From: Patescibacteria group bacterium
GTDB taxonomy: Bacteria; Patescibacteriota; Patescibacteriia; JAHJFT01
Assembly (NCBI GenBank): GCA_028710985.1
Contig: JAQTTB010000002.1
Location: forward strand, 86,750 to 150,749
Length of the DNA: 64,000 bases
Direction: 5' to 3'
Shown: piece by piece, positions 12,841 to 63,712 of the stretch
Numbering within the stretch: the first letter of the stretch is position 1
Layout: each line of letters begins with the position of its first letter
Notes under the pieces: generated by a model
Told to the model about the DNA's origin: nothing
The model's input: the letters and a program-made list of their open reading frames with translations, nothing else
Databases searched by the model: none
Program-made: the position numbers and the translations under genes

Positions 12841-12886
12841 ACCCTTGATTTTATTAATCGAATTTGATAACATATTTTCATTATTT

Positions 12887-12969
12887 GGGCCGGTAGTCCC
12901 GATGTTCCGCCACGGGCGGAAATCGGGATCCCGACATCCCGACGCAGTCGGGATCGTCGGGGCTCAGTC
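12887..12969 (+). pseudogene. Copy of the tRNA-Lys 5' end (gggccggtag...ctcagtc) interrupted by a 66-nt insertion led by a conserved 32-nt hairpin
   Basis: Seventeen nucleotides identical to positions 1-17 of the intact tRNA at 13008; the hairpin tcccgatgttccgccacgggcggaaatcggga occupies 12897-12928. Confidence 0.5.
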
Positions 12970-13007
12970 AGAATATTCTTAAAATAAATATAAAAAAATG
13001 ATAATTT

Positions 13008-13084
13008 GGGCCGGTAGCTCAGTCTGGTAGAGCAACTGCCTTTTAAGCAGAAGGTCCTGGGTTCAAATCCCAGCCGGCCTACCA
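13008..13084 (+). tRNA. tRNA-Lys (anticodon UUU)
   Basis: Cloverleaf folded by hand: acceptor gggccgg/ccggcct, D-arm gctc/gagc, anticodon loop cuUUUaa, T-arm ctggg-ttcaaat-cccag, encoded CCA. Confidence 0.85.
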
Positions 13085-13140
13085 ATCGAGTAGTCAGTAA
13101 TCAGTATTCCGTAGTAGATTATTAAGTAAGTCGAAATATA

Positions 13141-13280
13141 TTTGCTGGGATTTGAATCGGGGATGGTAAGGGGGCGCAGCCCCCTTGCTTACCGAGGAAA
13201 GCCCACGAAAACCCGAAGGTTTTCGTGAGAGTCCCGAGCTTGTCGAGGGACGATGTGAGAATCCCAGCCGGCCTACCAAA
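13141..13280 (+). other. GC-rich structured element closed by gctgggatt / aatcccagc and ending in a duplicate of the last 20 nt of tRNA-Lys (aatcccagccggcctacca)
   Basis: Internal hairpins gggggcgcagccccc, cgaaaacccgaaggttttcg and tcccgagcttgtcgaggga; the 3' tRNA duplicate is seen directly at 13261-13280. Confidence 0.45.
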
Positions 13281-57476: not shown

Positions 57477-57581
57477 GTCAAAAGTTAAAAGTTAAAAGTC
57501 TAAAGTCAAGTCCAAAGTCTAAAAGTTATTGACTTAACGACTTTTAACTCAACTTTTAACTTTAGACTTTTGACTTTTAAC
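57477..57581. repeat. Long (about 105 bp) AT-rich imperfect palindrome built from AAAAGTT / AAAGTCT units, abutting the rarA stop codon
   Basis: The left arm gtcaaaagttaaaagttaaaagtctaaagtc is approximately the reverse complement of the right arm gactttagacttttgacttttaac. Confidence 0.55.
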
Positions 57582-58893
57582 TATTCAAATATTTCCGTCC
57601 CTTCAATTCTTCGGGCAGATAGTCCTGTTCCACCTTGCCCTCGTAATTTGGATTGTATTTATACCCCTTGCCATATCCCAGATCCTTCATTAAATCCGTA
57701 GGCGCGTTCCGGATATGCAAGGGCACGGGCAAATTCTCCAACTCTTTAATATCTTTCTGCACGCTGCAGTATGCCATGTAAAGTTTGTTTGATTTCGGAG
57801 CTTTGGAAAGATATGCCACGGCCTGCGCCAGAATTACGTTGCATTCCGGCATGCCGAGATAATGCGATGCCGTGAACGCCGAAACCGCTTGAACCAGCGC
57901 GTTTGGATCCGCAAGGCCGATATCCTCGCTTGCGAACCGGACCAGCCGCCGCGCCACATAAAGCGGGTCTTCACCACCCTCGAGCATGCGGCCGAGCCAA
58001 TAAAGCGCCGCATTCGCATCCGAACCGCGCATTGACTTATGCAGAGCGGAAATTATGTTGTAATGCTCTTCGCCGGTCTTGTCATACAAAAGATGTGTCC
58101 GCTGGAGCGCCTCGGCGAGGTCCTTCAGCTCCAATTTTACCATTTTTTGACCGTTTTTTGAAGTGGAGTTAACCGCAGTCTCCAGGGCGTTTAACGCGGT
58201 CCGCGCATCTCCGGCCGCCATGTTGGCAAGATAATCCAGGACTTTTGGCTCAACTTGAATATTCATTGCCCCGAGTCCCCTGACTTCATCTCGAAGGGCG
58301 AAGTCCAGAATACGCCGGGTTTCCGCGGGCTTGAGCAGGTTCAAAACAAAAACCCGGCACCGCGATAAAAGCGCGGAATTTACTTCAAAGCTCGGATTTT
58401 CGGTTGTCGCACCGATTAAAATTATGTTTCCCTGTTCAACGTGCGGCAAAAACGCGTCCTGCTGGGCTTTGTTGAAACGGTGTATTTCGTCAACAAAAAA
58501 TATTGTTTTTTTAAGATAGAGCCGGCGGTCTTCTTTGGCTTTTTCAATAATCTTTTTGACCTCGGCGATTCCCGTGGAAACGGCTGTAACCTCCACGAAA
58601 TTTGATTTGGTCTGATTGGCAATAATTTTCGCGAGCGTTGTCTTGCCGGTTCCGGGCGGACCCCAAAAAATCATTGAAGGCGGCTGATCGCTCTCCAGAA
58701 GATTGCGCAGCATTTTGCCTTCGCCGACCAAATGCTCCTGGCCGACGAACTCGCTCAAAGTCCTTGGCCTCATACGATCCGCGAGCGGCGAGGGTGTGCG
58801 CCTTAGGTTTTGACTAAATAAATCCATAATGATAAACTGTTGCCAATATTTCAAGGAGGAAGGGATGAATAAGGTAAGGGAGTTCTTTTCCAA
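57577..58893 (-). CDS. rarA: Replication-associated recombination protein A (RarA/MgsA AAA+ ATPase)
   Basis: Walker A GPPGTGKTT, Walker B FVDEIHRFNK, MgsA C-terminal domains. Confidence 0.85.
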   Translation of the reverse strand: MEKNSLTLFIPSSLKYWQQFIIMDLFSQNLRRTPSPLADRMRPRTLSEFVGQEHLVGEGKMLRNLLESDQPPSMIFWGPPGTGKTTLAKIIANQTKSNFVEVTAVSTGIAEVKKIIEKAKEDRRLYLKKTIFFVDEIHRFNKAQQDAFLPHVEQGNIILIGATTENPSFEVNSALLSRCRVFVLNLLKPAETRRILDFALRDEVRGLGAMNIQVEPKVLDYLANMAAGDARTALNALETAVNSTSKNGQKMVKLELKDLAEALQRTHLLYDKTGEEHYNIISALHKSMRGSDANAALYWLGRMLEGGEDPLYVARRLVRFASEDIGLADPNALVQAVSAFTASHYLGMPECNVILAQAVAYLSKAPKSNKLYMAYCSVQKDIKELENLPVPLHIRNAPTDLMKDLGYGKGYKYNPNYEGKVEQDYLPEELKGRKYLNS

Positions 58894-59083
58894 TCTCTGG
58901 GATGACGAACTGTGGCGAGACTTTCGCTGCCATTTCGGCTTTCATCAGCCGCCCCATCGGTCGCCTTCGGACATTGAACCCGGCAAAACCGACTTCTTCT
59001 GTCCACATTGCGGACTCGTCCTCAAGACCGTCTCTTATGAGCGGCCGGAAGATGCCCTGCACACCTGGGTACTGGATGGCTAA
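58865..59083 (+). CDS. Small hypothetical protein with a CPHCG half zinc-finger
   Basis: 72 aa starting at the internal Met; followed by a terminator at 59092-59119. Confidence 0.3.
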   Translation: MNKVREFFSNLWDDELWRDFRCHFGFHQPPHRSPSDIEPGKTDFFCPHCGLVLKTVSYERPEDALHTWVLDG

Positions 59084-59091
59084 CGCGTCTC

Positions 59092-59119
59092 GTCTCCCGC
59101 GGTGCGGGAGACTTTTTTA
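59092..59119 (+). terminator. Intrinsic terminator (gtctcccgc ggtg cgggagac followed by T6)
   Basis: Seen directly. Confidence 0.65.
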
Positions 59120-59138
59120 TTTAATATAAGCGAAATTC

Positions 59139-59167
59139 TTGACTTAATATTACAAACATGCTAGAAT
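59139..59167 (+). promoter_or_regulatory. Sigma-70 promoter TTGACT-17-TAGAAT, probably the original tRNA-Pro promoter and now 420 bp upstream of the tRNA
   Basis: Seen directly. Confidence 0.5.
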
Positions 59168-59190
59168 TTAGTCAAATTATTCTTCATCGG

Positions 59191-59211
59191 GCCTGCCTGC
59201 GGCAGGCAGGC
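59191..59211. repeat. REP-like perfect palindrome (GCCTGCCTGCGGCAGGCAGGC) inserted into a copy of the tRNA-Pro 5' end (catcgggc|REP|ctgtagc)
   Basis: Further copies are at 59753-59772, 59799-59814, 60442-60461 and nested at 63673-63712. Confidence 0.6.
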
Positions 59212-59230
59212 TGTAGCTTAATACTCAATT

Positions 59231-59284
59231 AATATTTCATCGGGCTGTAGCGTCCCGACATTCCGCCGCGGGCGGAAGTCGGGA
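59231..59284 (+). repeat. 22-nt direct repeat DR1 (aatatttcatcgggctgtagcg, identical to the tRNA-Pro leader plus 5' end at 59574-59595) followed by the conserved 32-nt hairpin tcccgacattccgccgcgggcggaagtcggga
   Basis: The hairpin has the same stems as the tRNA-Lys-linked copy at 12897-12928; differences fall only in unpaired positions. Confidence 0.6.
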
Positions 59285-59309
59285 CTCATACTTTAGAATA
59301 TTAAAAAAG

Positions 59310-59627
59310 ATGAGAAAAGGATTTGTATATATTTTACAAAGCACCTCTAATGGTAGATTTTATATCGGCTCTAGCACAGATGTAGCGCATCGACTAATTG
59401 ATCATAATTACGGCAGAGTGAAATCAACGAAAAACAAGGGGCCATGGGTATTAAAGCTTGTACAATCCTATGATACAATTACCGAGGCAAAACAAATTGA
59501 ATACAGACTAAAAAAATTAAAGCGTCGAGATTTTATTGAAAAAATCATCGAAGAGGGCCATATTAAGCTAAAGAATATTTCATCGGGCTGTAGCGCAGTT
59601 GGTAGCGCGCATCGTTCGGGACGATGA
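59310..59627 (+). CDS. GIY-YIG nuclease-domain protein (about 90-aa domain; the reading frame runs on into tRNA-Pro DNA)
   Basis: GFVYILQS...NGRFYIGSSTDVAHRLIDHN is the GIY-YIG core; the last 15 codons are encoded by DR2 and the tRNA. Confidence 0.65.
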   Translation: MRKGFVYILQSTSNGRFYIGSSTDVAHRLIDHNYGRVKSTKNKGPWVLKLVQSYDTITEAKQIEYRLKKLKRRDFIEKIIEEGHIKLKNISSGCSAVGSAHRSGR

Positions 59628-59659
59628 GGCCGCGGGTTCGAGTCCCGCCAGCCCGACCA
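59584..59659 (+). tRNA. tRNA-Pro (anticodon CGG)
   Basis: C1:G72 acceptor pair typical of bacterial tRNA-Pro, D-arm gcgc/gcgc, anticodon loop ttCGGga with G37, T-arm gcggg-ttcgagt-cccgc, encoded CCA. Confidence 0.85.
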
Positions 59660-59784
59660 TTATAAATACAAATCTATTTCGAAAAGGGACTCGAAGGGCG
59701 CGAGAAAATGCGACCCTGGGAGCATTTGGTGCGCAGCGCCCCGGACCGCGAGCCTGCCTGCCGGCAGGCAGGTCGGAGCGAGCG

Positions 59785-59823
59785 GGAGTCCCGCCAGCCT
59801 GCCTGCCGCAGGCAGACCCGACC
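59785..59823 (+). repeat. Duplicate of the tRNA-Pro 3' end (gagtcccgccagcc...cccgacca) interrupted by a REP palindrome
   Basis: Seen directly, 126 bp downstream of the intact tRNA. Confidence 0.55.
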
Positions 59824-59835
59824 AAAAAATAAATA

Positions 59836-59868
59836 AAACCGCCGCCGGATACCGGGGCGGTTTTTGAA
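59836..59868. terminator. Bidirectional intrinsic terminator (ccgccgccgg ata ccggggcgg followed by a T run)
   Basis: Seen directly between the tRNA-Pro region and cobA. Confidence 0.55.
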
Positions 59869-59877
59869 TTTAATTCG

Positions 59878-60408
59878 CTAATAATCAATTCCCGCTCTCG
59901 CCGCGACACCCTGATCCATATAATGCTTCACATTCCTCATGTCAGTCACCAGATCCGCGGCCTGCATTATTTCCGGCCGCGCGTTGCGTCCGGTAAGCAC
60001 CAATTCAATGCGCTCCGGCTTGGGCAAAATCAAATCCAGAACATCGGCGAGCGCGACAAGTTCCTGATGCAGAATATTATTAATCTCGTCAAGAATCAAA
60101 ACATCATGCTCGGCGCGTTCCAGGATCTCGCGCGCGATTTCCAATCCCCTTTTTGCTTCCCACCTGTCCTCATCGGTTACCGAAAAATCAAATTGATCCG
60201 TTGCTGGGTTAAACCTCGCGCGGCCGCATGCCCAAAAATCAATTTCGTCTGCAAAACGCTTTTCAAACATCTTTCTTTCCGAATAAAAATCCCCGCCCTT
60301 GTCAAAATACACAATCGCCACGCGCCGTCCTGACTGCACCGCCCTCATCGCAAGTCCGATTGCCGCCGTGGTCTTCCCTTTTCCATCACCAGTATAGACA
60401 TGTATCAT
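59878..60408 (-). CDS. cobA: Cob(I)alamin adenosyltransferase (CobA/BtuR/CobO type)
   Basis: P-loop MIHVYTGDGKGKTTAAIGLA and the LDEINN block; 176 aa. Confidence 0.8.
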   Translation of the reverse strand: MIHVYTGDGKGKTTAAIGLAMRAVQSGRRVAIVYFDKGGDFYSERKMFEKRFADEIDFWACGRARFNPATDQFDFSVTDEDRWEAKRGLEIAREILERAEHDVLILDEINNILHQELVALADVLDLILPKPERIELVLTGRNARPEIMQAADLVTDMRNVKHYMDQGVAARAGIDY

Positions 60409-60441
60409 CTCGTAGAGATTATTGTATTAAATTCCTACAAG

Positions 60442-60461
60442 CCTGCCTGCCGGCAGGCAGG
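60442..60461. repeat. REP-like palindrome CCTGCCTGCCGGCAGGCAGG between cobA and nrdJ, followed by TTCCTACAAGCTACAAGCT
   Basis: Seen directly. Confidence 0.6.
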
Positions 60462-60486
60462 CTACTTCCTACAAGCTACAAGCTCG

Positions 60487-63400
60487 TCAGGAGCAGCCGC
60501 TCGTTCCTCCGCAGTTCAAACATTTATAGCACGCGCCGTTTCTCACCATCATGCTGCCGCAGGTATCGCAAACCGGCGCGTCGGCTTGCATGTCAAAAGT
60601 CACTGTGTCATCCTGTCCGAGCTGGCGGCCGAGCGGTAATTTTTGTTTTTTCAAATCAATCTCTTCAACCTTTTCCGAGGGCGTCTGCGTCTCTATCTGC
60701 TGGGGCAGTTCCTGCGGCGCGTTGATGCCGATCATTGCCTGCTCTTCGGCCGGCAAAAATTTCATAGACAACCAGCGGAAAATATAATCAATAATTGATT
60801 TCGCGATACGGATATTCGGATTGTTAGTCACACCCGACGGCTCAAACCGCATGTGCGCGAATTTATTCACCAGCACGCGGAGCGGCACTCCGTACTGCAT
60901 GCCAATTGAAACTGACGTGGCAAATGCGTCCATGAGTCCGGAGATCACGCTGCCCGTCTTGCTCATGGTGATAAAAATCTCTCCTGGTTCGCCGTTGTCA
61001 AACATACCGACCGTAATATAACCCTCGTGATTGGCTACCGAGAATTTATGGGTGATAGAACGGCGCTCATCCGGCATACGGCGGCGGCGCGGCTTGTACT
61101 CTTCGGCTCTTGCCTCGGCCGCTTTTGCCGGTTTCACATCCTTGCCGTCTTTCGAAGTAGTGAGCGGCTGGGTGCGTTTTGAATTGTTGCGGTAGATCGC
61201 GATTGCCTTAAGACCAGAACGCCAGGCCAGCATATAAGTTTCCGCGATTTCATCTTCGGTCGCATCCTCCGGCATGTTTACGGTTTTGGAAATCGCACCC
61301 GAAAGAAACGGCTGGACCGCGGACATCATTTTCACGTGTCCGATGTAATGGATACTTCGCTTGCCGTTCTGCGGTTTAAAAGCGCAGTCAAAAACCTTGA
61401 GATGCTCTTCTTTGAGATTCGGCGCGCCCTCAATCGTATCGTTCGCGTCAATGTATTCCAGGATCAACTTTACCTGTTCGGCCGGATATCCCAGATCGGC
61501 AAGCGCTTCAGGCACGGTGTGATTAATCATTTTAATTAAGCCGCCGCCGACCAGCCATTTATATTTTACAAGCGCGATATCCGGCTCAATGCCCGTGGTA
61601 TCGCAATCCATCAAGAATCCGATCGTTCCGGTCGGCGCAAGAACCGTCACCTGCGCGTTCTTGTACCCGCTCTCTTGGCCGTGCGCCAAAGCCTCATCCC
61701 ACATGCGGTTTGCTGTTTCCAGAAGAAGCGGCGGCGCGCCCGCCGGTTCGATCCGCTGGCTCGCATCACGATGCATTTCAATCACACGCAAAAACGATTC
61801 TTCATTTTCCGGATAACAACGGAAGGTGCCCAGGCGTTCCGCCAGGCGGGCCGACTGGTCATAAGCCGTCGCGGTCATAAGAGATGTCACTCCGGCCGCG
61901 AAATTTCGTCCTTCATCACCGTCATAAGCCAGGCCGCGCGACATAAGAAGCGCGCCGAGATTGGCATACCCCAGCCCGAGCGGACGAAAATCCCGCGCGT
62001 TCTGCTCGATCGCCGGCGTAGGATAGGAAGAATTGTCAATCACAATCTCCTGCGCCGTGACCAAGGTCCGAGCGGTATGGATAAATTGTTGCGTATCAAA
62101 CTCACCGTCTTCACGACGGCATTTCATCAAATTGATTGAAGCGAGATTGCACGCCGAATCATCCAGAAACATATATTCCGAGCAGGGATTGGAGGCATTA
62201 ATGCGGCCCGACACCGGACAGGTGTGCCAGCGGTTCACGGTCGTGTCGAACTGCAGGCCCGGATCGCCGCAAATCCACGCCGCCTTGGAAATCTGCTTCA
62301 TCAAATCCTTGGCGCGAAATTTTTCAAGTGTCTCGCCGGTGGTCACTTTTTTTGTCGCCCACTCTTCATCCGCCTCAACCGCGTGCATGAAATCGTCGTT
62401 CACGCGCACGCTGTTATTTGCATTTTGAAAAAATATTGAATTATACGCCTCGCCGTCAAATGATCCGTCATACCCCGCGTCAATTAACGCCCATGCTTTT
62501 TTCTCTTCGCTGGATTTGCAGTTTATAAATTCAACAATATCCGGATGGTCAATATTTAAAATTACCATCTTGGCCGCGCGCCGCGTCTTGCCGCCGGACT
62601 TGATAACCCCGGCAAAAGCGTCAAAGCCCTTCATGAAAGAAACCGGCCCCGAAGACTTGCCCGACGAGGAACCCAGAAACTCTTTTGAAGAACGAAGTGA
62701 TGAAAGATTGCTGCCCGTTCCGGAACCGTATTTAAAAAGCATGCCCTCGGTCATCGCGAGGTTCAGAATCGAACGCATGTCATCCTGCACCGAATTAATA
62801 AAGCATGCCGATGTCTGCGGCCGCTCGCTGATACCCACATTAAACCAGACTGGGCTATTGAACGCCGCGTATTGATTCGCGAGAATATAACATAGCTCGT
62901 CTTCAAACGCCTGCGCGTCTTCCTGGGTTTCAAAATATCCACCGCAGCGCCCCCAGTCGGTAATCGTTTTTGTAACCCGGTCAATCATCTGCTTCAGGCT
63001 CAACTCCCGATCCGGTTTGCCAATCTGGCCGCGAAAATATTTGGAAACAACAATATTTGTCGCGGTTTGCGACCAGGCTTTGGGAACCTCAACATCCTTT
63101 TGCTCAAAAACCACCTCGCCCTTGTCGTTCGTGATGCGGGCGTCACGCCGCTCCCACTCAATCGCATCATATGGATGTACTCCCGGAACTGTAAAAAACC
63201 GCGTGAACCGGATGCCCGGACCGTAAACCGGAACCTTCTCCAGGCTCTGGCCTTTTTTCTGGCGGTAAGCAATAAAACACTTGGCCACGTGCGTCAGATT
63301 ATGGTCAATCAGCGTTACCTGAACAATTTCACGCACCTCATCGGACGTCGGGGTGGTGTGCCCGTTGAATTGATACGCCAGCCGGCTCAAGACCTGGCTC

Positions 63401-63630
63401 GCGACCTTGCGCGCCAGAGCCGCATCCTTCATCCCCGCGTCCGTAAAGCTGTACCAAATAGATTTGGTGAGCTTATCCGGGTTGAAATCCTGCACGTCCC
63501 CGTTTCTTTTCTTTATATTTTTTACCGTGGCCAAATACTGCCAAACCCGCTCCGGCACCTCCTTGGCCGCAAGTGAATCCGTGACGGAAAAAAATTGTTT
63601 TTCTTGGCCGCGCGAAATTGATTGGTCCAT
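60487..63630 (-). CDS. nrdJ: Class II (adenosylcobalamin-dependent) ribonucleoside-triphosphate/diphosphate reductase with an N-terminal ATP-cone and a C-terminal zinc ribbon
   Basis: ATP-cone (VKKRNGDVQDF), active-site blocks NPCSEY and CNLASINL, and the C-terminal CDTCG...CYKCLNCG; 1047 aa. Confidence 0.85.
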   Translation of the reverse strand: MDQSISRGQEKQFFSVTDSLAAKEVPERVWQYLATVKNIKKRNGDVQDFNPDKLTKSIWYSFTDAGMKDAALARKVASQVLSRLAYQFNGHTTPTSDEVREIVQVTLIDHNLTHVAKCFIAYRQKKGQSLEKVPVYGPGIRFTRFFTVPGVHPYDAIEWERRDARITNDKGEVVFEQKDVEVPKAWSQTATNIVVSKYFRGQIGKPDRELSLKQMIDRVTKTITDWGRCGGYFETQEDAQAFEDELCYILANQYAAFNSPVWFNVGISERPQTSACFINSVQDDMRSILNLAMTEGMLFKYGSGTGSNLSSLRSSKEFLGSSSGKSSGPVSFMKGFDAFAGVIKSGGKTRRAAKMVILNIDHPDIVEFINCKSSEEKKAWALIDAGYDGSFDGEAYNSIFFQNANNSVRVNDDFMHAVEADEEWATKKVTTGETLEKFRAKDLMKQISKAAWICGDPGLQFDTTVNRWHTCPVSGRINASNPCSEYMFLDDSACNLASINLMKCRREDGEFDTQQFIHTARTLVTAQEIVIDNSSYPTPAIEQNARDFRPLGLGYANLGALLMSRGLAYDGDEGRNFAAGVTSLMTATAYDQSARLAERLGTFRCYPENEESFLRVIEMHRDASQRIEPAGAPPLLLETANRMWDEALAHGQESGYKNAQVTVLAPTGTIGFLMDCDTTGIEPDIALVKYKWLVGGGLIKMINHTVPEALADLGYPAEQVKLILEYIDANDTIEGAPNLKEEHLKVFDCAFKPQNGKRSIHYIGHVKMMSAVQPFLSGAISKTVNMPEDATEDEIAETYMLAWRSGLKAIAIYRNNSKRTQPLTTSKDGKDVKPAKAAEARAEEYKPRRRRMPDERRSITHKFSVANHEGYITVGMFDNGEPGEIFITMSKTGSVISGLMDAFATSVSIGMQYGVPLRVLVNKFAHMRFEPSGVTNNPNIRIAKSIIDYIFRWLSMKFLPAEEQAMIGINAPQELPQQIETQTPSEKVEEIDLKKQKLPLGRQLGQDDTVTFDMQADAPVCDTCGSMMVRNGACYKCLNCGGTSGCS

Positions 63631-63672: not shown

Positions 63673-63712
63673 CCTGCCTGCCGCCTGCCTGCCGGTAGGC
63701 AGGGCAGGCAGG
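63673..63712. repeat. Nested double REP-like palindrome upstream of nrdJ
   Basis: cctgcctgccgcctgcctgccggtaggcagggcaggcagg. Confidence 0.5.

What the first reader, a model, noticed from the sequence alone, without database searches (positions are those of the whole stretch)
59139..59823. The tRNA-Pro locus looks like a stack of insertions into duplicated tRNA ends: a REP palindrome, a conserved hairpin, a GIY-YIG nuclease cassette, and a 3'-end duplicate
Upstream of the intact tRNA-Pro(CGG) at 59584-59659, its leader plus 5' end occurs three times. Copy 1 (59185-59217) is split by an 18-bp REP-like palindrome (catcgggc|ctgcctgcggcaggcagg|ctgtagc). Copy 2 (59231-59252) is an exact 22-nt direct repeat of copy 3 (59574-59595), which is the real tRNA start. 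Copy 2 is followed at once by a 32-nt hairpin and then a complete GIY-YIG nuclease gene with no stop codon of its own; the frame reads into tRNA DNA. A promoter with a good match to consensus (TTGACT-17-TAGAAT) now sits 420 bp upstream of the tRNA. Downstream, the last 22 nt of the tRNA recur at 59785-59823, again split by a REP palindrome. The insert between DR1 and DR2 is 321 bp. This is the pattern expected from target-duplicating insertion of a small nuclease-carrying cassette at the 5' end or D-arm of a tRNA gene, followed by later REP insertions. GIY-YIG cassettes that target tRNA 5' ends by target duplication have not, to my knowledge, been described as a mobile class.
Basis: seen in the sequence. 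Interest (0 to 1): 0.7.

Follow-up and report, generated by a model that had tools for sequence, protein, structure and literature searches.

The report
Nuclease cassette that invades tRNA genes
A tiny selfish DNA cassette, made of an 88-residue GIY-YIG nuclease gene and a signature hairpin, has split this bacterium's tRNA-Pro gene and supplied an intact copy. The same design recurs next to tRNA genes in about 80 other genomes and I found no description of it in the literature searched.

Summary
The predicted test came out positive. Seven related genomes keep the same small ORF, terminator, TTGACT-17-TAGAAT promoter and leader, and run straight into tRNA-Pro(CGG) with no nuclease gene, hairpin or tRNA fragments. 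The window therefore carries an insertion of about 0.5-0.6 kb that splits the resident tRNA near position 11/12 and contains a complete tRNA-Pro.

The case is not isolated. Of 84 homologous GIY-YIG genes in 80 genomes (Patescibacteria, Omnitrophota), 77 have a same-strand tRNA within 400 nt downstream (63 within 45 nt) and 5 have one just upstream. A Pedobacter genome, examined separately, shows the same design. Cognate tRNA 5' fragments lie upstream in 43% of loci, against 1.4% in controls. GC-rich hairpins with a CCGAC/GTCGG stem are 50-100 times enriched at these loci. They sit precisely inside the broken tRNA copies or replace the anticodon arm. In 28 of 36 ORFs that lack their own stop codon, the stop is the tRNA's conserved T8-A9-G10.

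tRNA-Lys in the same window carries a remnant without the ORF. "Target duplication" is the wrong description: the cassette carries replacement tRNA sequence. The closest known relative is phage SegB. The mechanism is inferred, not shown.

The parts
59092..59112 (+). Terminator of the upstream small zinc-ribbon ORF. It marks the left edge of the ancestral tRNA-Pro transcription unit.
   Evidence: Terminator scan. An equivalent hairpin followed by a T-run sits at the same place in relatives L085-L091 and L213.
59139..59187 (+). Ancestral tRNA-Pro promoter (TTGACT-17-TAGAAT, 59139-59167) and leader (TTAGTCAAATTATTC...).
   Evidence: 10 of 12, TG extension. The same promoter and leader directly abut tRNA-Pro in seven related genomes.
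59188..59217 (+). Resident tRNA-Pro 5' piece (positions 1-11), now a pseudo-fragment. It is interrupted after position 4/5 by the 19-nt palindrome CCTGCCTGCGGCAGGCAGG (59192-59210).
   Evidence: Its identity as the original 5' end follows from the conserved leader in front of it.
59218..59240 (+). 23-nt segment resembling the last 13 nt of the GIY ORF plus the 10-nt pre-tRNA leader. It is probably what remains of an earlier or tandem cassette copy.
Evidence: family D1 (three 27-nt copies, 70-74% identical). Comparison by eye with 59551-59583.
59241..59252 (+). Second tRNA-Pro 5' fragment (positions 1-12). With the 10 nt before it, it forms the exact 22-nt direct repeat of 59574-59595.
   Evidence: (D3).
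59252..59285 (+). Signature hairpin H: GTCCCGAC ATTCCGCCGCGGGCGGAA GTCGGGAC, an 8-bp outer stem with a nested inner hairpin.
   Evidence: (I6). The same CCGAY/RTCGG-stem hairpins occur at 2.0 per kb in homologous loci and 0.04 per kb outside them.
59286..59309 (+). Cassette 5' UTR (CTCATACTTTAGAATATTAAAAAAG). CTCA fits a generic GTAG|CTCAG D-arm rather than the Pro D-arm.
   Evidence: It shares AGAATATT...AAAAAA.ATGA with the tRNA-Lys remnant and TATTAAAAAG with L001.
59310..59627 (+). GIY-YIG nuclease ORF of 105 codons. The domain and C-terminal helix occupy 59310-59573. The last 15 codons and the TGA stop are tRNA sequence.
   Evidence: -.
- GC is 35%, against about 50% in the flanks.
- AF2 model pLDDT 93.8.
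- Nearest structures are UPF0213 and Slx1.
59584..59659 (+). Intact tRNA-Pro(CGG), lying inside the inserted DNA.
   Evidence: It differs at 2 positions from the tRNA-Pro of the closest relative with an empty site, L213.
59660..59785 (+). Tail of the insert (about 59660-59721), then a possible decayed middle of the resident tRNA (positions 12-56). The palindrome CCTGCCTGCCGGCAGGCAGG lies at 59753-59772.
   Evidence: After removing the palindromes, a local alignment starts at tRNA position 12. Support is weak: 23 of 500 shuffles score as well.
59786..59824 (+). Resident tRNA-Pro 3' piece (positions 57-76), interrupted by a 19-nt palindromic insertion (core CTGCCTGCCGCAGGCAG, 59799-59815).
   Evidence: (D8, D5). 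It is followed by AAAAATAAATAAAA and a terminator, as in empty-site relatives L087 and L091.
59835..59864 (+). Ancestral terminator of the tRNA-Pro unit.
   Evidence: Perfect hairpin found. The equivalent element follows tRNA-Pro in the relatives.
12886..13007 (+). Second cassette in the same window, lacking the ORF. It reads: tRNA-Lys 5' fragment (12887-12896, positions 1-10); hairpins H1 (12897-12928) and nested H2 (12929-12962); the tRNA resuming as CTCAGTC (positions 11-17); then a UTR remnant ending in ATGATAATT.
   Evidence: H1 matches the tRNA-Pro hairpin at 28 of 32 positions by my manual count of the sequences.
13008..13084 (+). Intact tRNA-Lys(TTT) downstream of the ORF-less remnant.
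13260..13278 (+). tRNA-Lys 3' fragment (AATCCCAGCCGGCCTACCA), 176 nt after the intact gene and preceded by other GC-rich hairpins.

Best explanation
**What it is.** The locus is a filled site of a small selfish element, about 0.35-0.6 kb long, that lives in tRNA genes. The element has three parts:
- one or more GC-rich hairpins with a CCGAC/GTCGG stem (H);
- a short UTR and an 88-residue single-domain GIY-YIG nuclease gene of the UPF0213/Slx1 type;
- replacement tRNA sequence fused directly to the end of the ORF, either the 5' part or a whole tRNA. In most relatives the tRNA's conserved T8-A9-G10 serves as the stop codon.

**What is shown.**
- The insertion splits the resident tRNA. In the window the break is in the D-arm, near position 11/12.
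- The 5' piece stays by the promoter, and in many loci a 3' piece stays by the terminator.
- An intact tRNA is kept next to the nuclease gene.
- The only strong promoter found upstream is the resident tRNA promoter.

**What is inferred.**
- The ORF and the tRNA are transcribed together from the captured tRNA promoter.
- The nuclease breaks tRNA-gene DNA.
- The break is repaired by copying from a filled locus. The partial tRNA copies act as homology arms, as in homing, or as the segment for a single crossover.
- H marks and inactivates the leftover tRNA copy.

**The window's history (inferred).** The tRNA-Pro locus has seen at least two rounds or a tandem amplification (copies 1 and 2). The ORF then lost its in-frame stop. 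An unrelated CCTGCCTGC palindrome family later colonised the dead tRNA pieces. The tRNA-Lys locus is a later stage in which the ORF has been deleted.
For: **Insertion.** Seven related genomes (MgsA 82-86% identical) keep small ORF, terminator, the same promoter and leader, tRNA-Pro(CGG) and terminator. None has GIY, H or tRNA fragments. The cassette is 35% GC against about 50% in the flanks.

**Generality.**
- Of 84 GIY genes in 80 genomes, 63 have a same-strand tRNA starting within 45 nt, 77 have one within 400 nt, 5 have a tRNA just upstream, and none has an opposite-strand tRNA within 600 nt.
- A cognate 5' tRNA fragment (score 11 or more) lies upstream of the ORF in 33 of 77 loci, against 1.4% with non-cognate tRNAs.
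- H hairpins occur at 2.0 per kb inside these loci and 0.04 per kb outside. 77% of GC-rich hairpins inside have the CCGAY core, against 4% outside.
- H abuts tRNA sequence precisely. It is never found before position 10. It clusters after positions 10-20 and 26-29, or replaces the anticodon arm.
- 36 of 65 ORFs have no stop before the tRNA, and 28 of those stop at tRNA TAG 8-10, across eight isotypes.

**Transfer and turnover.**
- The nearest GIY relative sits at the same isoacceptor in 39 of 78 cases, against 3.2 expected.
- Intact and broken tRNA copies are different alleles, with compensatory stem changes, in L004, L029, L040, L052, L062 and L076.
- Tandem units occur in L007, L075 and Pedobacter.
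- An ORF-less remnant sits at tRNA-Lys.

**Nuclease.**
- Pfam GIY-YIG 5.7e-15.
- Y7, Y18, G20, R28 and H32 align with I-TevI Y6, Y17, G19, R27 and H31. Y18, G20 and R28 are invariant across 29 homologues, and Y7, H32 and E64 are at least 90% conserved.
- The nearest structures are UPF0213 and Slx1.

**Precedent.** Phage SegB, a GIY-YIG nuclease encoded among tRNA genes, cuts inside tRNA genes and drives co-conversion and amplification (PMC2330249; PMC13096335).
Against: - No cleavage activity or site has been shown for this family.
- An 88-residue protein has no DNA-binding domain, so how it would recognise tRNA genes is unknown.
- If the target lies inside the tRNA, the intact tRNA beside the gene should also be cut. 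No immunity mechanism is evident.
- The conserved CCGAC stem is not explained by simply disrupting the old copy. It suggests H has an active role.
- Loci where the same H flanks both sides (L078, L016, L026, L075) fit a single-crossover or circle model better than a simple insertion.
- In the window the middle of the resident tRNA is only weakly recognisable.
- The origin of copy 2 and the 23-nt segment is a guess.
- Half of the loci show no recognisable 5' fragment.
- Conserved synteny such as Arg(CCT)-GIY-Phe(GAA) in many Paceibacteria could reflect long vertical inheritance rather than repeated homing.
- No spanning contig other than the window itself covers the whole locus.
Confidence: 0.6

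Rival explanations
1. The hairpin H is the truly mobile unit: a miniature palindromic element without target duplication. The Slx1-like GIY-YIG would be its structure-specific nuclease. It would cut hairpin loops or cruciforms that tRNA genes can extrude, and insert or exchange H there. tRNA duplications would then be the survivors' way of compensating for hits on essential tRNA genes, and the nuclease gene would ride next to them.
For: - H is inserted precisely, with no nucleotides lost or duplicated.
- H occurs nested and in tandem.
- Several H can sit at different positions of one pseudo-tRNA, as in L009, L029 and L058.
- H replaces the anticodon arm exactly, 17 nt for 17 nt in L001.
- Insertion points lie in the D-loop or at the borders of the anticodon arm.
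- The closest structural relatives, Slx1 and HIGLE, act on branched or stem-loop substrates.
- The same H stem is found from Patescibacteria to Pedobacter.
- Weinberg et al. 2010 noted a different hairpin repeat (GUCCY) with possible enrichment near COG2827 genes.
Against: - H is essentially confined to GIY/tRNA loci (0.02-0.04 per kb elsewhere), unlike dispersed REP or MITE families.
- GIY-YIG nucleases are not known to catalyse strand transfer.
- Identical H pairs flanking a cassette are explained more simply by duplication.
- This reading does not by itself explain the in-frame fusion of the ORF to tRNA position 1.
Confidence: 0.2
2. The nuclease is a host-beneficial gene linked to tRNAs. 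It might serve tRNA-gene repair or amplification, or act as an RNA-processing enzyme co-transcribed with its tRNA. The fragments and hairpins would be by-products of nuclease-stimulated local recombination, as in SegB-driven segmental amplification, rather than traces of horizontal mobility.
For: - SegB amplifies the tRNA plus segB segment and benefits the phage (PMC13096335).
- Tandem units occur in L007, L075 and Pedobacter.
- Orientation is strictly shared and the ORF abuts the tRNA, which implies co-transcription.
- A prokaryotic Slx1-like domain fused to a TrmH-type tRNA methyltransferase has been taken as a hint of a role in RNA metabolism (PMC1564403).
- The family is very large: 2,461 clusters at E of 1e-10 or better.
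Against: - The gene is absent from all seven closest relatives at this locus.
- Its base composition looks foreign.
- The ORF is deleted at tRNA-Lys and has lost its stop codon at tRNA-Pro.
- Broken and intact tRNA copies have different origins in at least six loci.
- The gene is spread across 13 isotypes with frequent switches.
- There is no significant match to known defence families.
Confidence: 0.12
3. The tRNA fragments are ordinary att-site remnants of integrase-mediated islands or prophages that integrated at tRNA-Pro and were later deleted. The GIY-YIG gene would be unrelated cargo left behind.
For: Partial tRNA copies flanking inserted DNA are the classic signature of integrative elements (bioRxiv 10.1101/2022.07.05.498093). 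The window has a 3' tRNA fragment next to the terminator.
Against: - There is no integrase or other recombinase ORF in or near the insert.
- The insert is only about 0.6 kb.
- 5' fragments dominate.
- The same compact architecture, with the same hairpin, recurs at about 80 loci on 13 tRNA isotypes.
- The ORF is fused in frame to the tRNA.
Confidence: 0.04
4. The structure is an assembly artefact caused by collapse or mis-joining of tRNA-proximal repeats.
For: All four short Logan contigs end inside the intact tRNA, so the assembly graph branches there.
Against: - Independent contigs are 100% identical through copy 1, copy 2, H, the ORF and the start of the tRNA, and through the whole downstream part.
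- The same architecture is seen in about 80 unrelated assemblies.
Confidence: 0.02

Closest known systems
SegB of T-even phages, a free-standing GIY-YIG homing endonuclease in the tRNA gene cluster
   Same: - A GIY-YIG nuclease gene sits among tRNA genes.
- It cuts inside tRNA genes. The motif RAWTSGAAC, which I read as the complement of the T-loop sequence, enhances cleavage.
- It promotes co-inheritance and segmental amplification of nuclease plus tRNA.
- Its association with tRNAs holds across many phages and isotypes (PMC2330249; PMC13096335).
   Different: - SegB is a phage protein, larger than this one, and was compared with I-TevI-type homing endonucleases. From memory it is about 220 residues and has a C-terminal DNA-binding region.
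- The window protein has 88 residues and is of the UPF0213/Slx1 type. It scores 26.8 bits against a TIGR01453 cut-off of 56.
- It is encoded in cellular genomes. No relatives were found in IMG/VR.
- SegB loci have no split resident tRNA, no H hairpins and no in-frame use of tRNA T8-A9-G10 as a stop.
Integrative elements that target tRNA genes (tyrosine-integrase islands and prophages)
   Same: The element inserts inside a tRNA gene and carries the displaced part of the tRNA. One intact and one partial copy therefore flank the inserted DNA.
   Different: - Those elements are 10-100 kb long and encode an integrase. From general knowledge they mostly use the 3' half of the tRNA and have defined att cores.
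- Here the insert is 0.35-0.6 kb with no recombinase. It mostly uses the 5' half, has variable junctions and carries hairpins.
REP/RAYT and IS200/IS605-type hairpin elements
   Same: Short GC-rich palindromes are associated with a dedicated nuclease gene. Insertion is precise and without target duplication. Copies can be nested or tandem. The properties of those families are recalled from general knowledge, not tested here.
   Different: - Those systems use HUH (Y1) transposases, and their REPs are dispersed genome-wide.
- Here the enzyme is a GIY-YIG nuclease, and the hairpins are confined to tRNA/GIY loci.
UPF0213/YhbQ (COG2827) proteins and eukaryotic Slx1
   Same: This is the closest relationship by sequence and fold: 1ZG2 at 7e-12, 1YWL, Slx1, At-HIGLE. 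Slx1 is named a structure-specific endonuclease in these entries. One entry is titled for branched DNA substrates and one is a 5'-flap complex.
   Different: No link to tRNA genes or mobile behaviour turned up for these proteins in the literature searched. Slx1 carries additional domains and works with its partner Slx4.
Group I introns with homing endonuclease genes in tRNA genes, including those of Patescibacteria
   Same: These are selfish elements with nuclease genes that occupy tRNA genes in the same phylum (PMC13011429).
   Different: - There is no intron RNA here. Rfam finds only the tRNA.
- The non-coding part is about 60 nt.
- The tRNA is restored at the DNA level rather than by splicing.
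- The nuclease genes reported in those Patescibacteria introns are HNH-type, and the introns sit at position 35/36.

Membership tests
GIY-YIG nuclease superfamily | Match to the GIY-YIG catalytic domain above the curated threshold | tested here: met
   PF01541 at 55.8 bits against a cut-off of 22.6, E 5.7e-15.
GIY-YIG nuclease superfamily | Catalytic Tyr, Tyr, Arg, His and Glu residues present | tested here: met
   Y18, G20 and R28 are invariant, and Y7, H32 and E64 are at least 90% conserved, in 29 homologues. Assigning E64 to I-TevI E75 is an inference.
UPF0213/YhbQ-Slx1 clade of GIY-YIG | Closest sequence and fold relatives are UPF0213 and Slx1 rather than I-TevI or UvrC | tested here: met
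   Profile against PDB: 1ZG2 7e-12, 1YWL 1.6e-8, Slx1 3e-5, I-TevI 4e-3. Foldseek gives the same order.
Homing endonuclease gene (functional class) | Presence/absence polymorphism at a homologous site in related genomes | tested here: met
   The window site is filled. Seven relatives have empty sites with conserved flanks.
Homing endonuclease gene (functional class) | The encoded enzyme cleaves the empty allele at or near the insertion site | not testable with these tools
   This needs biochemistry. The insertion and hairpin positions (10-20, 26-29) only suggest where a cut might be.
Homing endonuclease gene (functional class) | Recurrent occupation of the same target in unrelated genomes | tested here: inconclusive
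   The nearest GIY relative shares the isoacceptor in 39 of 78 cases, against 3.2 expected. Vertical inheritance could contribute.
SegB / I-TevI-type free-standing endonucleases | I-TevI-like catalytic domain plus a linker and C-terminal DNA-binding domain (feature recalled from memory; about 200-250 residues) | tested here: not met
   The protein has 88 residues and a single domain. TIGR01453 scores 26.8 bits against a cut-off of 56. The PHROG homing-endonuclease match covers only the catalytic core.
Integrase-type tRNA-targeting island | A tyrosine or serine recombinase gene between the tRNA repeats | tested here: not met
   The only ORF with a domain match between the repeats is the GIY-YIG gene.
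Group I or group II intron in a tRNA | A ribozyme core interrupting the tRNA, with the tRNA restored by splicing | tested here: not met
   Rfam at E of 1 or better finds only the intact tRNA in 58500-60500. The tRNA gene is uninterrupted.
REP/RAYT system | An HUH Y1 transposase flanked by genome-wide REP hairpins | tested here: not met
   The nuclease is GIY-YIG. H hairpins occur at only two loci in 64 kb, both next to tRNAs. Whether a RAYT exists elsewhere in the genome was not tested.
MITE | Terminal inverted repeats plus a target-site duplication | tested here: not met
   H is a palindrome inserted with no duplicated or lost target nucleotides, for example in L053, L078 and the window tRNA-Lys locus.
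Known anti-phage defence systems (PADLOC) | A significant match to a defence-system protein model | tested here: not met
   The best E-values are about 8e-4, to a generic homing-endonuclease model and to PDC-S14, over the first 30 or so residues only.

The most novel reading that the evidence does not exclude
The CCGAC hairpin and the 88-residue Slx1-like GIY-YIG nuclease may together form a previously unrecognised kind of mobile system. In this reading the system is guided by DNA structure and recognises the cloverleaf or hairpin-forming DNA of tRNA genes. It would insert or swap hairpins at loops and arm borders and rebuild the hit gene with its own tRNA sequence. It would borrow both the tRNA's promoter and its T8-A9-G10 as a stop codon. 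It would spread across Patescibacteria, Omnitrophota and Bacteroidota and drive horizontal replacement of tRNA genes.
Probability: 0.3. Interest if true: 0.9.

Novelty: new variant of a known kind. Interest (0 to 1): 0.8.

Why it matters
- **Annotation.** If confirmed, this explains the many short "GIY-YIG nuclease family protein" genes in candidate-phyla-radiation genomes. It also explains stray tRNA fragments, and ORFs that run through hairpins or pseudo-tRNA or into tRNAs, all of which confuse annotation. It may explain why short-read contigs break at these tRNAs.
- **A minimal element.** It would be one of the smallest autonomous selfish elements known: one 88-residue nuclease, a hairpin and borrowed tRNA sequence.
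- **tRNA evolution.** It offers a route by which tRNA genes are replaced horizontally in bacteria with very small genomes.
- **A function for UPF0213/YhbQ.** It ties a family of unknown function to a concrete, testable substrate: tRNA-gene DNA or a specific hairpin.
- **Link to SegB.** It extends the SegB and tRNA story from phages to cellular genomes.
- **Possible tool.** The enzyme could be useful as a very small structure- or sequence-specific nuclease.

Tried and rejected
- **Exact look-up of the 105-residue ORF product.** Not on record.
- **Metagenome scan with the 17-mer TAGAATTTAGTCAAATT.** It returned 120 mostly chance hits.
- **IMG/VR scan with the family profile.** No relatives, so there is no evidence for a phage vehicle.
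- **Rfam on the locus and on the Pedobacter locus.** Only tRNAs reach a gathering score. I recalled the Pedo-repair motif from memory as a lead, but it does not match. By the authors' description it is a different structure.
- **The GUCCY hairpin of Weinberg et al. 2010.** It is noted near COG2827 genes but is a different hairpin with no tRNA link. I keep it as a lead only.
- **PADLOC.** Nothing significant.
- **Classical integrase island, group I intron and assembly artefact.** All rejected, as set out under the rival explanations.
- **A true staggered-cut target duplication.** Rejected. Repeat lengths vary from 10 to 60 nt between loci. The repeats always start at tRNA position 1 or in the ORF end. 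The window's outer fragments are the two halves of one resident gene.
- **Alignment of 59660-59785 to the middle of the tRNA.** Only weakly supported, so that part of the reconstruction is tentative.
- **The 19-nt inverted repeat 59314-59332 / 59662-59680.** This pairs the ORF start with the sequence just after the tRNA. I could not tell it from chance.
Full report
**1. The observation**

The intact tRNA-Pro(CGG) lies at 59584-59659. An exact 22-nt direct repeat, made of 10 nt of leader and tRNA positions 1-12, occurs at 59231-59252 and 59574-59595. A third 5' copy at 59188-59217 is interrupted by a perfect 19-nt palindrome. The hairpin GTCCCGAC...GTCGGGAC lies at 59252-59285.

The ORF at 59310-59627 matches GIY-YIG (Pfam 5.7e-15). 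It has no stop codon before the tRNA and ends at a TGA inside it. The promoter TTGACT-17-TAGAAT sits at 59139-59167. The last 20 nt of the tRNA recur at 59786-59824, split by another palindrome.

Short contigs assembled independently from three sequencing runs are identical to the window on both sides. All of them stop inside the tRNA.

**2. It is an insertion: empty sites exist**

The window comes from a Patescibacteria MAG. I fetched the loci of seven relatives whose MgsA protein is 82-86% identical: L085, L086, L087, L089, L091/L092, L213 and L214/L215.

- All keep the neighbouring small zinc-ribbon ORF, its terminator, the same promoter and the leader TTAGTCAAATT....
- The leader is followed directly by tRNA-Pro(CGG), an A-rich stretch and a terminator.
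- None has a nuclease gene, hairpin or tRNA fragment.

In the window the same promoter and leader precede copy 1. The same A-rich stretch and terminator follow the 3' fragment. These two pieces are therefore the ends of the resident gene. Everything between them, about 570 bp including a complete tRNA-Pro, is inserted DNA. The cassette has 35% GC against about 50% around it. After removing the palindromes, the region before the 3' fragment aligns weakly with the tRNA from position 12 onward. That places the break at 11/12 in the D-stem.

**3. The arrangement is general**

A profile of the nuclease family retrieved 80 loci from one-genome-per-species contigs. Most are Patescibacteria and several are labelled Omnitrophota.

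- Of the 84 GIY genes, 63 are followed within 45 nt by a tRNA on the same strand, and 77 within 400 nt.
- Five have the tRNA immediately upstream instead.
- No opposite-strand tRNA lies within 600 nt.
- Thirteen isotypes are involved.
- In 33 of 77 loci a fragment of the cognate tRNA, starting at its first nucleotide, lies 40-100 nt upstream of the ORF. The rate with non-cognate tRNAs is 1.4%.
- Many loci also have a 3' part of the tRNA downstream of the intact gene.
- The family is large: 2,461 clusters at 50% identity with E of 1e-10 or better.
- It also occurs in Bacteroidota. In Pedobacter fastidiosus, tRNA-Leu is followed by two tandem units of GIY, a tRNA-Leu D-arm piece, a hairpin in place of the anticodon arm, and the rest of tRNA-Leu with its terminator.

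**4. The hairpin is a hallmark**

Hairpins with a CCGAY/RTCGG stem of at least 7 bp occur at 2.0 per kb around these genes and at 0.04 per kb in the rest of the fetched DNA. Of all GC-rich perfect hairpins inside these loci, 77% have this core, against 4% outside.

- They sit inside the broken tRNA copies without loss or gain of tRNA nucleotides. The tRNA sequence resumes after them, for example GCCAGAATAGCTCAG|H H|TTGGTAGAGCA in L053.
- Alternatively they replace the anticodon arm exactly, as in L001, L019, L026, L034, L075, L018 and Pedobacter.
- Their positions cluster after tRNA nucleotides 10-20, with a peak at 15/16, and after 26-29. None lies before position 10.
- They are often tandem or nested.

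In the 64-kb window this hairpin type occurs at only two places: the tRNA-Pro locus and just upstream of tRNA-Lys. At tRNA-Lys a fragment (positions 1-10), two hairpins, the resumed D-arm, a UTR remnant with ATG and then the intact tRNA show the same design with the ORF deleted. A 3' fragment lies 176 nt downstream.

The CCTGCCTGC palindromes are a different family. They also occur in two nearby intergenic regions.

**5. The ORF is fused to the tRNA**

In 36 of 65 loci the ORF has no stop codon before the tRNA. In 28 of these it stops at the TAG formed by the conserved tRNA nucleotides 8-10. This holds for Ala, Arg, Val, Ile, Lys, Thr, Phe and Met tRNAs. The window copy is shifted out of that frame and runs 15 codons into the tRNA.

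The hairpin never interrupts the 5' fragment before position 10. This fits a unit ordered as ORF, then tRNA(1 to a, with a at least 10), then H, then UTR, which appears circularly permuted at a filled site. In the window that unit is 343 bp.

**6. Variants and what they imply**

- **Same hairpins on both sides.** Some loci carry the same hairpins, with a few tRNA nucleotides, on both sides of GIY plus tRNA. Examples are L078 (1-29, H H, 30-38, GIY, tRNA-Met, 18-29, H H, 30-75) and L016, L026, L030 and L075.
- **Mirror order.** Others have tRNA, then GIY, then a broken tRNA with H (L011, L018, L066, L069, Pedobacter).
- **Tandem units.** These occur in L007, L075 and Pedobacter.
- **Recombination.** All of this fits recombination between a resident tRNA and an H-interrupted partial tRNA copy linked to the nuclease gene. 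The recombination could be break repair or a single crossover. Only products that keep one intact tRNA would survive.
- **Different alleles.** In L004, L029, L040, L052, L062 and L076 the intact and broken copies are different alleles with compensatory stem changes. One of them therefore came from another genome.
- **Phylogeny.** Nuclease phylogeny tracks the tRNA isoacceptor in half of the cases (39 of 78, against 3.2 expected). Lineages stay with a tRNA but switch often.

**7. The protein**

It is a single GIY-YIG domain plus one helix. The model is confident (pLDDT 93.8) and the catalytic Tyr, Tyr, Arg and His residues are conserved. Its nearest solved relatives are the UPF0213 proteins 1ZG2 and 1YWL, then Slx1 and At-HIGLE. 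I-TevI is far behind. It has no DNA-binding domain. It does not reach the threshold of the group I intron endonuclease family and matches no defence family significantly.

**8. Literature**

Searches of the held library found no description of GIY-YIG cassettes at tRNA genes in Patescibacteria or elsewhere in cellular genomes. The recent survey of tRNA introns in Patescibacteria mentions neither GIY-YIG nor hairpins.

The closest precedent is phage SegB. It is a GIY-YIG nuclease encoded among tRNA genes and cuts within them. A motif that I read as the complement of the T-loop sequence enhances cleavage. SegB drives co-conversion and segmental amplification (PMC2330249; PMC13096335).

Weinberg et al. 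2010 noted a different hairpin repeat, possibly enriched near COG2827 genes.

**9. Most likely mechanism, and limits**

- **Shown:** the insertion relative to empty sites; the family-wide architecture; the hairpin association; the ORF-tRNA fusion; the mixed origin of the tRNA copies; the decay stages.
- **Inferred:**
  - that the nuclease cuts tRNA-gene DNA;
  - that repair or crossover through the partial tRNA copies installs the cassette;
  - that expression comes from the captured tRNA promoter;
  - that H inactivates the leftover copy.
- **Unexplained:**
  - how an 88-residue enzyme finds its target;
  - why the neighbouring intact tRNA is spared;
  - why the hairpin stem is conserved.

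  The last point keeps open the alternative that H is itself the mobile unit, handled by a structure-specific nuclease.
- **Tentative:** the history of copy 2 and the 23-nt segment in the window.

Noticed in passing
window 12886-13279: The tRNA-Lys(TTT) locus shows the same design without the nuclease ORF. It has a 5' fragment, two CCGAY hairpins (one nested) and a UTR remnant with ATG, then the intact tRNA. Downstream lie an inverted T-arm fragment (about 13145-13160) and a 3' fragment at 13260-13278.
   Followed up: partly
window 60440-60463 and 63673-63712: Further CCTGCCTGC palindromes lie in the CobA/RNR intergenic region and upstream of the RNR gene. The first is flanked by the direct repeat TTCCTACAAGC. 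All ten CCTGCCTGC matches in the 64 kb lie between 59.1 and 63.7 kb. Relative L086 has no gap between RNR and CobA.
   Followed up: partly
L045 1616-1740 and L057 837-1030: A more divergent GIY-YIG gene upstream of tRNA-Ser(GCT) is accompanied by a different hairpin family (TCCCGC...GCGGGA, GTCACCGC...GCGGTGAC) instead of CCGAC hairpins.
   Followed up: no
L007 2641-3260; L075 3001-3662; L216 1501-2230: Tandem or duplicated nuclease units occur. In L007 the two copies are 100% identical, with a 60-nt repeat made of the ORF end and tRNA-His positions 1-20. This resembles SegB-type segmental amplification.
   Followed up: partly
window 59314-59332 and 59662-59680: A 19-nt inverted repeat, 84% complementary, pairs the start of the GIY ORF with the sequence right after the intact tRNA. 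It could be a fragment of an inverted nuclease gene or chance in AT-rich DNA.
   Followed up: no
window 59536-59564: A weak promoter-like match (TTGAAA-17-CATATT, 9 of 12) lies inside the 3' end of the GIY ORF, about 20 nt upstream of the tRNA. It could give the tRNA its own transcription start.
   Followed up: no
L081-L084 (window 57546-59611, 59603-63408): All short-read contigs of this organism end within the intact tRNA-Pro. This suggests a branch in the assembly graph there, from another tRNA-Pro copy or a co-existing allele.
   Followed up: partly
window 58829-59083: A small ORF with a zinc-ribbon-like CxxC pair, divergent from MgsA, is conserved at the same place in all the relatives examined (76-87 residues). 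It has no Pfam family above threshold.
   Followed up: no
L003, L006, L008, L014 (labelled Omnitrophota or Planctomycetes): In these loci the tRNA-Ala gene lies 100-340 nt after the ORF. The interval is filled with several CCGAC hairpins and a tRNA 5' fragment, so hairpins flank the ORF on both sides.
   Followed up: no
proteins P0010, P0020, P0023, P0028, P0044, P0065: Database ORF calls for this family often carry N- or C-terminal extensions that are translated tRNA or hairpin DNA, for example RGVAQLASAPRLGRGGRRFESCHPDH, WRNWLARPDVTSGRP and the PTSD motif. This is a systematic annotation artefact that could serve as a search handle.
   Followed up: partly
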